Part shown: positions 4,508-43,007 of the stretch, piece after piece
How the letters are laid out: every line of letters starts with the position of its first letter
Numbering within the stretch: position 1 is the stretch's first letter
Source: Leucoraja erinacea
Lineage: Eukaryota
Length of the DNA: 64,000 bases
Direction: 5' to 3'
Assembly: GCF_028641065.1 (NCBI RefSeq)
Contig: NC_073378.1
Location: forward strand, 97,712,001 to 97,776,000
Notes under the pieces: model-generated
What the model saw: only the letters and a program-made list of their open reading frames with translations
The model's database searches: none
What the model was told of the DNA's origin: nothing
Made by a program: the position numbers and the translations under genes

Positions 4508-5615
4508 AACATAGAAACATAGAAAATAGGTGCAGGAGTAGGCCATTCGGCCCTTCGAGCCTGCACTGCCATTCAATATGATCATGGGTGATCATCCAAC
4601 TCAGTATCATGTTCCTGCTTTCTCTCCATAGCCACAAGGGCCACATCTAACTCTCTCTTAAATATAGCCAATGAACTGGCCTCAACTACATTCTGTGGCA
4701 GAGAATTCCAGAGATTCACCACTCTCTGTGTAAACATGTTTTTCTCATCTCAGTCCTAAAAGATTTGCCTTTTATCCTTAAACTGTGACCCCTTGTTCTG
4801 GACATCCCCAACATCGGGAACAATCTTCCTGCATCTAGCCTGTCCAGCCCCTTAAGAATTTTGTAAGTTTCTATAAGATCCCCCCTCAATCTTCTAAATT
4901 CTAGCGGGTACAAGCCGAGTCTATCCAGTCTTGACATCCCAGGATTCAGTCTGTTGAACCTTCTCTGTACTCCCTCTATGGCAAGAATGTCCTTCCTCAG
5001 ATTAGGAGACCAAAACTGTACGCAATACTCCAGGTGTGGTCTCACCAAGACCCTGTACAACTGCAGTAGAACCTCCCTGCTCCTATACTCAAATTCTTTT
5101 GCTATGAATGCTAACATACCATTCGCTTTCTTCACTGCCTGCTGCACCTGCATGCCTACTTTCAATGACTGGTGTACCATGACACCCAGGTTTCGTTGCA
5201 TCTCCCTTTTTCCTAATCGGCCAAAATTCAGGTAATAGTCTACTTTCCTGTTTTTGCCACCAAAGTGGATAACCTCACATTTATTCACATTATACTGCAT
5301 CTGCCATGCATTTACCCACTCACCCAGCCAATCCAAGTCATCTTGCAGCCTCCTAGCATCCTCCTCACAGCTAACACTGCCCCCCAGCTTCGTGTCATCC
5401 GCAAACGTGGAGATCTTGCGTTACCCCACTAGTCACTGCCTGCCATTCTGAAAAGGACCCGTTAACTCCTACTCTTTGCTTCCTGCCTGTCAGCCAGTTC
5501 TCTATCCACATCAATACTGAACCCCCAATACCGTGTGCTTTAAGTTTGTATACTAATCTCTTATGTGGGACCTTGTCGAAAGCCTTCTGAAAGTCCAGAC
5601 ATACCACATCCACAT
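4508..5615 (-). mobile_element. 5'-truncated CR1 LINE (RT C-terminus plus 3' UTR) with internal deletions
   Basis: [58 protein letters not shown]; (tttctatg)n tail. Confidence 0.95.
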
Positions 5616-6800
5616 CCACAAAGCTGAACAATCTCTCCACACTTTCCCCGTAAATGGAGATTGGGGCGTATTCTCCATTATGGGACCTCCTGAAGTCAAT
5701 AATCAGCTCCTTGGTCTTGGAGGTGTTTAGTGACAAGTTGTTACGTGCGCACCAGTCCGCCAGGTTCTGCACCTCCGCTCTGTATTTTGTTTCATCCCCG
5801 TTGGTGATCAGCCCAATCACTGTTGTGACGTCTGCAAACTTCAAGATGGTGTTGATGTCGAATACAGGAACACAGTCGTGAGTGAAGAGGGAGTAGAGCA
5901 TGGGGCTTAGTACACAGCCCTGTGGTGTGCCAGTGCTCAGGGTGATAGTGGAGGACAGGTGCGGGCCCAGTCTCACTGCCTGCGGTCGCTCCGTCAGAAA
6001 ATTCAGGATCCAATCGCATTCGGCGAGCTGAGGCCTAGCTGGTGGAGTTTGGTGGTGAGCTTGCTGGGGATGACTGTATTGAATGCAGAGCTATAGTCAA
6101 TGAAGAGCATCCTCACGTACGTGCCCTGTCCAGGTGAGTCAGGACAGTGTGAAGAGCCAGAGAGATGGCATCCTCTGTTGATCTATTTGCTCTGTATGCA
6201 AATTGATAAGAGTCCAGTGAGGCAGGGATGCTGGATTTGATATGGGAGAGGACCAGCCTTTCAAAGCACTTAATTGGGATTGGAGTTAGGGCAACCGGGC
6301 GGTAGTCGTTCAGGTTGGTGACTTTAGACTTTTTCGGCACCGGCACTATGGTGGCTGTTTTCAGGCACTTGGGGACCGTTGCCAGAGATGGAGACAGATT
6401 GAAGATTCTCGTGAATACCTCCGCCAGCTGTACAGCACAGTCCTTTAGTACCTTTCCCTGGACTCCATCCGGGCCTGCAGCCTTGCGTGGATTGATCCTA
6501 CACAGAGCGCCCTGTACCTCCTGAGTACTCAGTGTTAAGACCTGTCCCTCCGCCATGGCCGGGGTTATTCCACACCTGGTGCTGTTGCCAGTTTCGAAGC
6601 GGGCAAAGAAGGTGTTTAGTTCATTGGCCAGTGTGATATCACTGTGGGGGCAGGCAGGGCTGCTCTTGTAGTCAGTGATGTCCCTGACACCCTGCCACAT
6701 GCTTCTGGTGTCCGCGGTATTGAAGTGGTCTTCCACCCTTTGCCTGTGGATGTCTTTGGCCGTTGTTCAGGTTCGACCTGGCCGCACTGTAGGCAGAAGT
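5616..6800 (-). mobile_element. Rex1/Babar-type LINE RT fragment abutting the CR1
   Basis: [70 protein letters not shown]; frameshifted. Confidence 0.9.
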
Positions 6801-13805: not shown

Positions 13806-14261
13806 ACTCACTTATGTGTTATATACAGGGCTGCCAACATTGGGTGAGAGTTGGGAGTGAGAAATTGCGAACGACCAAGCCCGAGCGACCGGGGGGGGGG
13901 GGGGGGAGGAGGGTCTCCCTTTCCCATTGGTACGGAACATTTGCATTTTTCAGCTTGAAATTGTGCAATATGGTGCATACTGTAGCGAGTCTTTTTACTT
14001 GTACTTGAATGCAATATATATGCTTTAAATTGGATTGGAGCGTTTTTGAAAGGGGGGAGGCTGTGCGATCACTGATCACTGGCCTTGGGGGTACCCGGTG
14101 AGGGAGTGGAGCAACCGAGTGGGGAGAGTGTGGAAGAAGGGTGTCCCCCCTCCCAGGGTAGGAACCTTTTGAAATTTGATGTATTAAGCTAATGTTTTAG
14201 TGCACTGTAGAAGTATGATTTCAATGTTTTTTGTATGAATTATTTTTAAGAGGTAACTTTT

Positions 14262-14900
14262 TAAGGGGTAACTTTATCCACGCAAAGGATGATGGGTGTA
14301 TGGAACAAGCTGCCAGAGGAGGTAGTTGAGGCAGGGACCATCCCAACATTTAAGAAAAAGTTAGACTGATACATGGATAGGACAGGTTTGGAGGTATGGA
14401 CCAAAAGCAGGTAGTGTAGCTGGGACATGTTGGGGGGTGTGGGCACGTTGCACCAAAGGGCCTGTTTTCACACTGTATCACTCTATGACTACATTATACC
14501 TCCACCATGCATGAATGCTTCAAAATCAAGTGATCGAGTTTTATTGCCATATACTCAAGCATAGAAACATAGAAAATAGGTGCAGAAATGGGCCATCGGC
14601 CCTTCGAGCCAGCACTGCCATTCAATATGATCATGGCTATTCATCTAAAATCAGTACCTCTTTCCTGTTTTTTCCCCATATCCCTTGATGTCGTTAGCCC
14701 CAAGAACTAAATGTAACTCTCTCTTGAATACATCCAGTGAATTGGCCTGCACTGTCTTATGTGGCAGAGAATTCCACAGATTCACAACTCTCTGCGTGAA
14801 GAAAGTTTGTTCTCATCTCAGTCCTAACTAGCCCCGACTTTATTCTTAAACTGTGACCCATGGTTCTGAACACCCCCAACATCGGGAACATTTTTCCTGC
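14262..14900. mobile_element. Two CR1 3' ends nested in the hAT element (14262-14490 +; 14560-14900 -)
   Basis: ggaacaagctgccagaggaggtagttgaggcagg and catagaaacatagaaaataggtgcag 3' UTR motifs. Confidence 0.8.
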
Positions 14901-15006
14901 AGTTACAGTAAGTGAAAATCTAGCAGGCAAGCAGGATGCTTTCACCAACCATCCCCATTTGAAGTCCACTATCTTCCACCGTATCTACCCAGTGCTTGGT
15001 ACTTAT

Positions 15007-15161
15007 TTCCAGCAGCCACTGGTTGTCCTCCAGGATGCACCGAGCCGCAGCCTGATCCATGCCGGTCACCTGGGCGAATTCGGCACAGAGACTCTCACGG
15101 TAGCGGCGAAATGCTTCGACGCCTCCGACGGCCCAGGACTCTTGCACTGAGGCTGCTCCAT
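15007..15161 (-). pseudogene. TDP2: Disabled copy of TDP2-like exon 1 (UBA-like N-terminal domain)
   Basis: RESLCAEFAQVTGMDQAAARCILEDNQWLLE resembles human TDP2 RRLLCVEFASVASCDAAVAQCFLAENDWEME (recalled). Kozak gccATGG at 15161 is 1 nt out of frame; the exon ends in GAA/ataagt, a mutated gtaagt donor. Confidence 0.75.
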
Positions 15162-15734
15162 GGCCAGAGCTGCAGTGAGCGACTCGCCAGCCCGGCAAAC
15201 ACTCGCCAGCCCCGCTCCCCGTCCGTATCTGTCCCCGCCGCTGCTTCTGCTTCCAACACCCGCGGCCCATGCAGTTGATATGAGTTTTGAAATTTTCGTT
15301 GATCACAGAATTTCTCACAACAGAGCGAGAGAAATTTGTGATCAGCGTGAGAATTTGGTGAAATGCGTGATTCTCATGCTCATTGCATGGAGTTGGCAGC
15401 CCTGTCTCTCAATCCCCCTCTCCCTCTCCCCCCCCCCCCCCTCTCTCTCTCTCCCCCTCTCTCCCTCTCCCCCCCTCTCTCTCATTCATTCATTCAAGCC
15501 GAAGAGCCGAAACCCTGACTATTCCTCTTTCCCCATACACTGCCTGACCTACTGTATTCACCCCGTATGTCCTATTTTGTAATACAATTATTAATACTTG
15601 TTTTACAACTCCACTAATACGGGAGGAAGGCCGTATGAAACAATGATTTTGGGTCCGAAGTGGGAACTTATTTGAAACAAGGTTTGGTGTGTGCGACTGA
15701 AAAAAAGGATAGTGTTGAACTTCATGTAACCCTT

Positions 15735-41794: not shown

Positions 41795-42815
41795 CGGAGT
41801 GGCTGCGCGGCTCTGGCTGCAGCGGCTTACCGACGGTCCCGTTGTCTTTGTGTTTTTTTATGTTGTTTATTTTGTTTGGTTAGTTTCGTTTTTTGGTTTT
41901 AGCTTGTGTTTTTGGGGAGACAACGAAATGCATTTTTGGGGGGGGGGGGGGTTGAAACGGGGTTTGCAGTCTCTCCCTGCGGGGGAATACGACCTTTTTG
42001 TCGTATTCCCCTTCTCTGCCTCCGTCTGCGCTGAGGCCTAATGGAGCTGACGACCTCGAGGCTCCGGAGGCAGAGCACCGTCAGGACTGAGCTCGCTCCC
42101 GTGAGGGTGGTCTGGCTCAGGGCTGGAAGAGGTTGGGACGCTCCCGTGAGGGCGGCCAGCCCGAGGGTGGAACGAGGCTCCCATCGGAGCGGCCGAGCTC
42201 GGGAAGGTGCGCCGCTGGCAGCCCGAGGGAGGTTCGGCACCCAAGTCGGGACGGCCCGGTCCGGGGGGAGAAGCGACGCCCAAGTCGGGGCGGCCCGGTC
42301 CGGGGGGAGAAGCGACGCCCAAGTCGGGGCGGCCCGGTCCGGGGGAGAAGCGACGCCCAAGTCGGGGCGGCCTGGCCAGAGGGAGAAGCAACGCCCAAGT
42401 CGGGGCGGCCCAGCCCGAGGCTGAAGACGGCACAGTACTCACGTGAGGGTGGCTGGGACGGTGTTCTGGCGGCAGTGGCCTGAGTCCGGGGTTCGGCCGC
42501 GGGCCAGCAGCTGCTTCTGCAGGACTGGTGGGCGGCAGCTTCAACCACCCCGGGCCGCGGTATTTGAGCCGCGGGACTGTTCTTAACATCGCCCGGGGGG
42601 GGTTATCGCCCCAGCGCAGAGGGAGAAGAGGAGGGAAGAGACTGCGACCTAAGACTTTTGCCTCCATCACAGTGAGGAGATGCTGGGTGGACTCACTGTG
42701 GTGGGTGTTAATGTGTGTTTATTGTTGTTTTATTGTATGGTATTATATGTATGACTGCTGCAATTTCGTTCAGACTTCGGTCTGAATGACAATAAAAGGC
42801 TATCTATCTATCTAT
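41795..42815 (+). mobile_element. GC-rich non-autonomous retroelement with internal ~36-bp tandem array (42240-42410)
   Basis: Unit gaagcgacgcccaagtcggggcggcccggtccggggg, about 5 copies; tail gacaataaaagg(ctat)n. Confidence 0.6.
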
Positions 42816-42896
42816 AAGGCCCTCAGTTTGTGTAGGTAGACATAAATTGCTGAAGTAACTCAGCAGGACAGGCAGCATCTCTATATACTGTATACA

Positions 42897-43007
42897 CAGC
42901 GGCGGACTGGCCAGGGTGTCAGCTTGCCCGATGGCAAGTGGGCCCCTGATGAAGTGGGTCCCTTTTGTCTCCTGGCAACCAATATTTTTAGACCCAGTCT
43001 GCCACTG
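42897..43007. mobile_element. 111-bp hAT-type mini-MITE
   Basis: TIRs cagcggcggactgg / ccagtctgccactg; perfect 8-bp TSD tgtataca. Confidence 0.9.

What the first reader, a model, noticed from the sequence alone, without database searches (positions are those of the whole stretch)
13826..15404. Pack-type hAT transposon carrying the 5' end of a TDP2-like gene
Seen: between perfect 13-bp TIRs lies a CpG-rich segment (~14900-15270, - strand) with a putative 5' UTR, a strong Kozak gccATGG, a UBA-like exon, a donor-like ataagt and ~100 bp of apparent intron. Retained intron sequence implies DNA-level capture, not retroposition. Knowledge: TDP2 removes 5'-phosphotyrosyl adducts; host-gene capture is well known for plant Pack-MULEs and Helitrons and less often described for vertebrate hAT elements. 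Inference: this family may have dispersed a CpG-island promoter/exon-1 module, or a source of TDP2-matching small RNAs, around the genome.
Basis: partly seen in the sequence, partly recalled or inferred. Interest (0 to 1): 0.8.

Follow-up and report, generated by a model that had tools for sequence, protein, structure and literature searches.

The report
Skate transposon spreading TDP2 first exon
A cut-and-paste jumping gene in a skate picked up the start of a DNA-repair gene (TDP2) and, riding inside a second jumping gene, copied it to at least eight hundred places, a scale rarely reported for this kind of element in animals, although the copy here is broken and the copies mostly look like inert passengers.

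Summary
The capture is real. Window 14264-15263 is a collinear DNA-level copy of the host TDP2 5' end: exon 1 plus about 745 bp of intron 1, 81% identical to the single seven-exon host gene. At least 820 places carry the exact exon end with a GT donor.

The right 13-bp TIR is an inner end; full copies run about 1 kb further. Their target-site duplications are mostly 6 bp and often 7 bp, not 8. The window copy is truncated, frameshifted and has a dead donor.

Older copies show two steps. A smaller element X, with its own TIR and a 5-bp TSD, captured TDP2 first. X then inserted into element Y, which did the mass amplification. hAT5/hAT6 affinity is inferred from TSD length only; no transposase partner was found.

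Unselected copies evolve neutrally and lose CpGs. RNA reads show no splicing from the captured donor, so a dispersed promoter or small-RNA role is unshown. This is an unusually high-copy, nested vertebrate Pack-TIR. The scan had not noted it before.

The parts
13826..13838 (+). Left 13-bp TIR of outer element Y
   Evidence: Exact inverted match to 15392-15404; the first 36 bases occur exactly 379 times genome-wide, control 0
13826..14036 (+). Left terminal region of element Y. In the long 3.1-3.3 kb form about 1.7 kb more follows here; it is deleted in this subfamily
14037..14263 (+). Remnant of the left subterminal region of inner element X (its first ~10 bases lost)
   Evidence: Matches the start of stand-alone X in L025/L089
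14264..15006 (-). Captured TDP2 intron 1, about 745 bp, with the same LINE/SINE-like remnants in the same order as the host intron
   Evidence: Collinear with G000:C2:37569498-37570241; 621 of 711 ungapped columns identical. The repeat class is a recalled label
15001..15006 (-). Splice donor, dead in this copy (GT changed to AT)
   Evidence: Host GT; 86 of 90 copies GT; the window is the only AT
15007..15161 (-). Captured coding part of TDP2 exon 1 (ATG to end of the UBA piece), frameshifted, stop after 31 codons
   Evidence: 142 of 155 columns identical to host; UBA_4 and TDP2 hits; frame state
15162..15263 (-). Captured sequence upstream of the ATG (5' leader, part of the CpG island). In Amblyraja P0003 the matching stretch is annotated as an N-terminal coding extension
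15260..15271 (+). Remnant of element X's right TIR, joined to the host piece by an internal deletion at a short shared motif
   Evidence: Identical to the last 12 bases of stand-alone X
15272..15404 (+). Right terminal region of element Y, ending in the inner 13-bp TIR (15392-15404)
15405..15483 (+). Stub of the CT-rich tract that in full copies leads to a second, ~72% diverged right-end unit and the outer TIR; the window copy breaks off here
   Evidence: no further TIR within 2 mismatches nearby

Best explanation
The window holds a truncated member of a non-autonomous cut-and-paste transposon family that carries a DNA copy of the host TDP2 5' end as a passenger. Step 1 (shown by older copies): a small TIR element X (about 1.9 kb, imperfect 15-bp TIR, 5-bp TSD) took up about 1.3 kb of the TDP2 locus and transposed on its own. 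Template switching or gap repair is the inferred route of capture. Step 2 (shown): one X copy inserted into a second element Y (13-bp TIR, 6-7-bp TSD), leaving a 5-bp duplication. Step 3 (shown): Y amplified the composite. Deletions eroded X's ends, a second right-end unit behind a CT tract became the outer end, and a frameshifted subfamily (the window's) expanded last. Both elements were most likely moved in trans by hAT-type transposases, hAT5-like for X and hAT6-like for Y (inferred from TSD length and termini, about 65%). Most copies are methylated, neutrally decaying passengers (inferred from CpG loss and pN/pS); the window copy cannot splice or encode the UBA.
For: Host gene with seven exons and no element ends around exon 1. 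Collinear exon-plus-intron match. No exon 2-7 match in 225 other sequences. 820 exact exon-end+GT 24-mers, control 0. 75 of 85 exon copies have the right TIR within 450 nt. TSD in 37 of 42 paired ends (27 exact), against 0.07 exact in shuffles. Stand-alone X copies hold longer host sequence on both sides and lack an insertion now in the host; one has the host-length exon. X TSD of 5 bp is exact in L089, L248/249 and at the X-in-Y junction of L246. 7 of 16 X right ends share one flank, an intermediate X-in-Y form. pN/pS 0.8-1.08 at non-CpG sites in 54 copies not picked by protein similarity; CpG sites mutated 6.2% against 1.2%. hAT5 and hAT6 are defined by 5- and 6-bp TSDs (PMC12730594).
Against: No transposase-bearing partner with these ends in 50 hAT-domain stretches. 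Y's TSD is mixed (10 of 42 are 7 bp, 3 are 8 bp), which a strict hAT6 would not predict. X's TSD rests on few copies: 3 exact, 1 with one mismatch, 2 without; 16 of 16 blind windows missed X's left end. The tree of 38 rows has no well-supported branch, so a single capture is not formally tested. RNA reads over the exon are 2-7 times biased to the TDP2-sense strand, which pure inertness does not explain by itself.
Confidence: 0.75

Rival explanations
1. Functional module: a sizeable share of copies act as portable CpG promoters or first exons, splicing the UBA exon onto neighbouring genes or producing TDP2-matching small RNAs.
For: At least 819 non-host places keep the exact exon end with GT. 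4 of 24 left-end-sampled copies keep ATG, frame and donor. Family-derived RNA reads cover the exon with a sense-strand bias. Pack-TIRs are often transcribed as chimeras (PMC8277862).
Against: pN/pS near 1 and fivefold CpG decay. Reads cross the donor unspliced, and no joint or loose end at the donor is among those listed (many weaker rows were not shown). Only about 100-200 bp of upstream host DNA was captured, so the core promoter may be missing. The largest young subfamily is frameshifted.
Confidence: 0.2
2. One-step capture by the 13-bp-TIR element Y itself; X-like copies would be secondary.
For: Most copies are bounded by Y ends.
Against: Stand-alone X copies carry more host DNA than the Y copies examined and have their own TSD. 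Y copies contain X's eroded ends and, in L246, the 5-bp duplication of X's insertion.
Confidence: 0.07
3. The mobilizing superfamily is not hAT but another TIR group with short or variable TSDs (P-like, IS3EU or an undescribed group).
For: Mixed 6/7/8-bp TSDs; no matching hAT transposase found.
Against: IS3EU termini given in PMC12730594 do not match. hAT5 and hAT6 fit the 5- and 6-bp modes. A related-looking MITE in host intron 1 appears by eye to have a degenerate 8-bp TSD. P-element TSDs of 7-8 bp are recalled, not checked.
Confidence: 0.25
4. RNA-templated capture: an unspliced TDP2 pre-mRNA was reverse-transcribed into the element.
For: [quoted passage not shown]
Against: Intron kept collinear, no exon 2, no poly(A) seen, and a 5' fragment rather than the 3' fragment that retroposition favours (established knowledge).
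Confidence: 0.06

Closest known systems
Multicopy animal Pack-TIRs, e.g. Pack-hAT-N8_XT with the CAPSL 5' UTR (Tan et al. 2021, PMC8277862; abstract, passages and sections 7, 10, 14 read)
   Same: Non-autonomous TIR element with a captured host 5' segment, distinct TSDs at each copy, GC-rich cargo.
   Different: That survey found four multicopy cases (1.4%), the example at three places, median cargo 224 bp. Here there are at least 820 places, 1.0-1.3 kb of cargo with a coding exon and donor, and a nested two-element history. Their screen needed at least 90% identity to a unique parent, so it would miss a family like this.
HelibatN3 of Myotis bats (NUBPL promoter, 5' UTR, first exon and part of intron 1, about a thousand copies; as described in PMC4224331, passages read)
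   Same: Same kind of cargo and similar copy number in a vertebrate.
   Different: That is a rolling-circle Helitron with another capture mechanism. This family has TIRs and TSDs.
hAT5 and hAT6 groups of hAT (PMC12730594, passages read)
   Same: 5-bp (X) and mainly 6-bp (Y) TSDs; short TIRs starting CA.
   Different: No transposase found, so no phylogenetic placement. Y also gives 7- and 8-bp TSDs.
Plant Pack-MULEs (recalled; also as summarised in PMC8277862)
   Same: Capture of GC-rich 5' gene fragments with introns.
   Different: Different superfamily; long TIRs and 9-bp TSDs are recalled for MULEs; individual Pack-MULEs are mostly low-copy.

Membership tests
Pack-TIR (Tan et al. 2021) | Internal host-derived sequence flanked by both ends of one TIR element | tested here: met
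   42 loci with both outer Y ends; stand-alone X with both ends
Pack-TIR (Tan et al. 2021) | Identifiable parental locus not itself flanked by the element | tested here: met
   Host TDP2, seven exons, no Y TIR at the capture borders
Pack-TIR (Tan et al. 2021) | Not a retrocopy (introns kept) | tested here: met
   About 745 bp of intron collinear; no exon 2-7 match in 225 sequences
Pack-TIR (Tan et al. 2021) | Multicopy by transposition: distinct TSDs | tested here: met
   27 exact and 10 one-mismatch TSDs in 42 pairs; shuffle mean 0.07 exact
canonical hAT | 8-bp TSD | tested here: not met
   1 exact and 2 one-mismatch 8-bp among 42 pairs
hAT6 (element Y) | 6-bp TSD | tested here: inconclusive
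   23 of 42 are 6 bp (16 exact), but 10 are 7 bp and 3 are 8 bp
hAT5 (element X) | 5-bp TSD | tested here: inconclusive
   3 exact, 1 with one mismatch, 2 without, among 6 informative junction pairs
hAT (any group) | Autonomous partner encoding a hAT transposase between the same ends | tested here: inconclusive
   None in 50 stretches around PF05699 hits, drawn from 150 scored of 1468 candidates; L231 is an insertion into an unrelated hAT
IS3EU | Termini as given in PMC12730594, TIR over 30 bp | tested here: not met
   13-bp TIR with different termini
Helitron | No TIR and no TSD | tested here: not met
   TIRs and TSDs present
Portable promoter / first-exon cassette | Transcription start and splicing from element copies | tested here: inconclusive
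   Reads present, unspliced across the donor; single-cell library, about 1% of the run read. CAGE, ATAC and small RNA not available

The most novel reading that the evidence does not exclude
A clan of skate TIR elements preferentially picks up CpG-island gene starts and passes them between transposon families by nesting. The TDP2 cassette, with over 800 intact donors and some in-frame UBA exons, has supplied working alternative first exons or promoters, including UBA-tagged chimeric proteins, at some skate genes.
Probability: 0.2. Interest if true: 0.8.

Novelty: new variant of a known kind. Interest (0 to 1): 0.58.

Why it matters
The one genome-wide survey I read found multicopy Pack-TIRs very rare in animals (four cases, the example with three copies). 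This family shows that a vertebrate cut-and-paste element can spread a coding first exon to about a thousand or more sites, a scale I found in print for vertebrates only with bat Helitrons. The surviving intermediates (stand-alone X, X inside Y, eroded forms, a duplicated right end) record the capture and hand-over step by step. They make capture models and the fate of dispersed CpG-island exons testable on hundreds of natural replicates, and runs under at least five organism labels hold the sequence. The same family will also confuse TDP2 annotation and read mapping in skates.

Tried and rejected
Autonomous partner: 30 loci plus 20 longer stretches around hAT dimerisation-domain hits showed no Y ends. 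One hit beside an element copy was an insertion of the element into an unrelated hAT.

A hAT-like motif seen by eye in the long form's extra 1.7 kb: no Pfam hit in 6 frames tested; only a weak LINE RT remnant at E 0.002.

A possible second captured coding exon in that segment: no PDB hit. The protein searches gave one hit that is another element copy and two unnamed hits that I did not read, so it was rejected. The source of the segment was not found in 28 kb around TDP2, and the best 40 genome hits were of element-like identity and were not fetched.

Purifying selection on the UBA: the apparent pN/pS of 0.4-0.6 came from picking copies by protein similarity and from CpG sites.

Tree of 37 copies plus host: unresolved star. 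Sixteen blind windows for X's left end found none. Paper searches for this family and for its terminal motif listed nothing on it, judged from listings only. Repbase and Dfam could not be searched. Earlier scan notes: nothing relevant. Pfam scan of 25 of the window's 50 longest frames found only LINE RT, so no host gene around the copy was identified.

Full report
Observation. The 13-bp inverted repeats are exact at 13826-13838 and 15392-15404, and 15000-15270 is CpG-rich (o/e 0.86 against 0.43 for the window). A minus-strand frame hits Pfam UBA_4 above its cut-off. Its best PDB match is the TDP2 UBA, E 1.3e-4, against 0.21 for p47. The only longer relative found is a TDP2 protein named for Leucoraja erinacea, P0002, with 34 of 40 residues identical. 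The genome is therefore a skate's.

Parent gene. P0002 maps to one seven-exon gene at G000:C2:37548389-37570403, minus strand. The other 109 of 113 scored matches cover only about the first 60-70 residues. Window 14264-15263 aligns collinearly with the host over 1039 columns at 81%. It includes about 745 bp of intron 1 with the same repeat remnants in the same order. Ungapped identity is 142 of 155 in the exon and 621 of 711 in the intron. None of 225 other sequences matched exons 2-7. No Y-type TIR flanks the host segment. Capture ran from host to element at the DNA level; an unspliced-RNA template is not formally excluded.

Copy number. The fragment gave 40 scored hits at 96-100% from 2622 candidates. 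An exact 24-mer made of the exon end plus GT occurs 820 times, control 0; one of these should be the host. Only 8 of 24 sampled copies carry it exactly, so the total is probably a few thousand (inference, wide margin). The left 36-mer occurs 379 times and the right 21-mer 1348 times. Of 20 right ends sampled, 8 had TDP2 exon homology, 1 had captured intron only, and 11 belong to sibling families. Of 40 left-end loci, 8 of them picked as long forms, 29 had an exon match. Of 85 exon copies with enough flank, 75 have the right TIR within 450 nt. Fourteen public runs under five organism labels hold at least half of the sampled words. In a DNA run of organism E, contigs bridge the junction of cargo and element end.

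True ends. In 18 of 19 other loci the sequence after the 'right TIR' is a shared CT-rich tract. It leads to a second, roughly 72% diverged copy of 15079-15404 that ends in the outer TIR. The window copy breaks off in that tract near 15483, hence no TSD. Of 82 loci, 20 lacked a left end in the stretch, 20 lacked an outer right end, and 42 had both. Exact TSDs were 16 of 6 bp, 9 of 7 bp, 1 of 8 bp and 1 of 5 bp. With one mismatch there were 7 of 6 bp, 1 of 7 bp and 2 of 8 bp; 5 had none. Shuffled pairings gave 0.07 exact on average, at most 2. The 8-bp hallmark of canonical hAT is not met.

Nested history. Copies lacking Y's right end exposed an older element X. L089 is 1.9 kb, has an imperfect 15-bp TIR of its own and an exact 5-bp TSD. 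It holds more intron, about 60 bp more upstream host DNA and the host-length 162-nt exon. Like L040, it lacks a roughly 57-bp insertion now present in the host. X's right end gave 40 scored hits from 310 candidates. Exact probes gave 157 left ends, which include X inside Y, and 60 right ends. Of 16 fetched X right ends, 7 share one flank, an intermediate X-in-Y form, and L246 keeps the 5-bp duplication of that insertion. Among other stand-alone copies with both ends, one has an exact 5-bp TSD, one has a single mismatch and two have none. Sixteen blind windows missed the left end. In the window, X survives as 14037-14263 and 15260-15271. A long Y form of 3.1-3.3 kb has about 1.7 kb more between 14036 and 14037. 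The order X alone, X in Y, eroded Y, duplicated right end, frameshifted young subfamily is the simplest reading. The tree did not resolve it: none of 34 inner branches was well supported.

Class. PMC12730594 (passages read) defines hAT5 and hAT6 by 5- and 6-bp TSDs and gives IS3EU termini that do not match. X is thus hAT5-like and Y hAT6-like by TSD. No partner transposase was found in 50 hAT-domain stretches, and Y's frequent 7-bp TSDs are unexplained. Membership in hAT is likely but unproven.

Function. Of 90 exon copies, 88 keep the ATG and 86 the GT. 31 are in frame, but 26 of these were picked by protein similarity. Among 24 picked by the left end, 4 keep ATG, frame and donor. The window copy is frameshifted and is the only one with AT at the donor. 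In 54 copies not picked by protein, non-CpG changes were 13 synonymous and 39 non-synonymous, pN/pS 0.8-1.08. CpG positions changed at 6.2% against 1.2% elsewhere, as expected of methylated DNA. In single-cell RNA run X22 (about 1% read) depth over the exon region was 19-50 on the minus strand and 2.5-24 on the plus strand, while the unique left flank had 0-1.5. At 15006, 64 of 70 reads carried the GT-type base, so they come from other copies and cross the donor unspliced. No joint or loose end at the donor was among those listed, though 204 joints and 1569 loose ends were not shown. This fits summed intronic read-through from many copies and does not show promoter activity. The strand bias remains open.

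Comparison. Tan et al. 2021 (PMC8277862; abstract, passages, sections 7, 10 and 14 read; supplements not opened) found four multicopy Pack-TIRs in 100 animal genomes, the example a hAT with a 291-bp 5' UTR at three places. Their screen required at least 90% identity to a unique parent. PMC4224331 (passages) reports a bat Helitron that spread the promoter, first exon and part of intron 1 of NUBPL to about a thousand copies, the closest functional parallel. Searches listed no paper on this skate family (listings only). Repeat libraries could not be searched, so it may already be catalogued as an unannotated repeat.

Verdict. A real Pack-TIR, a new variant by scale and by its two-element relay. 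The window copy is a dead fragment and functional impact is unshown. Interest 0.58.

Noticed in passing
L212, L225, L229; L214, L218, L222; L216, L217, L220, L221: Sibling families share Y's ends but have other interiors; two of them are CpG-rich (GC 0.64-0.68, CpG o/e 0.6-1.0). By eye they resemble promoters or first exons with donor-like ends. The L217 interior has 581 candidates genome-wide. Parent loci were not identified.
   Followed up: partly
L051:2513-3033 (G000:C2:37565513, TDP2 intron 1): A roughly 520-bp MITE with a TIR and subterminal motif related to Y's and, by eye, a degenerate 8-bp TSD, about 4 kb from the capture border.
   Followed up: no
G000:C2:37570547-37570603: A roughly 57-bp insertion just upstream of host TDP2 exon 1 is absent from the older captured copies, so it post-dates the capture.
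   Followed up: yes
G000:C2, 95 nt upstream of the TDP2 ATG: An upstream ATG is out of frame in this genome, whereas Amblyraja P0003 is annotated with a 32-residue extension from the matching place: an indel, an assembly error or an annotation difference.
   Followed up: no
L228 and the outer right-end unit of L013, L014, L020: The second right-end unit breaks off inside exon 1 at a near-palindrome with a short fold-back, suggesting template switching (read by eye).
   Followed up: no
L159:3500-5200 (long form, between window 14036 and 14037): About 1.7 kb of unknown origin with a decayed LINE RT remnant and an exon-like 39-codon stretch that has no host protein match; 1029 candidates genome-wide.
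   Followed up: partly
L142 (G000:C2:37841730-37847230): A rearranged Y copy with a 7-bp TSD lies about 277 kb from the TDP2 gene; not shown to be more than chance.
   Followed up: no
window 4700-6800 (minus strand): LINE reverse-transcriptase fragments.
   Followed up: no
window 42001-43000: GC-rich kilobase (0.615) with several open frames, none of those scanned hitting Pfam.
   Followed up: no
L191-L196: A young family of about 1 kb (96-98% identical) carrying a hAT dimerisation-domain fragment, without Y's ends.
   Followed up: no
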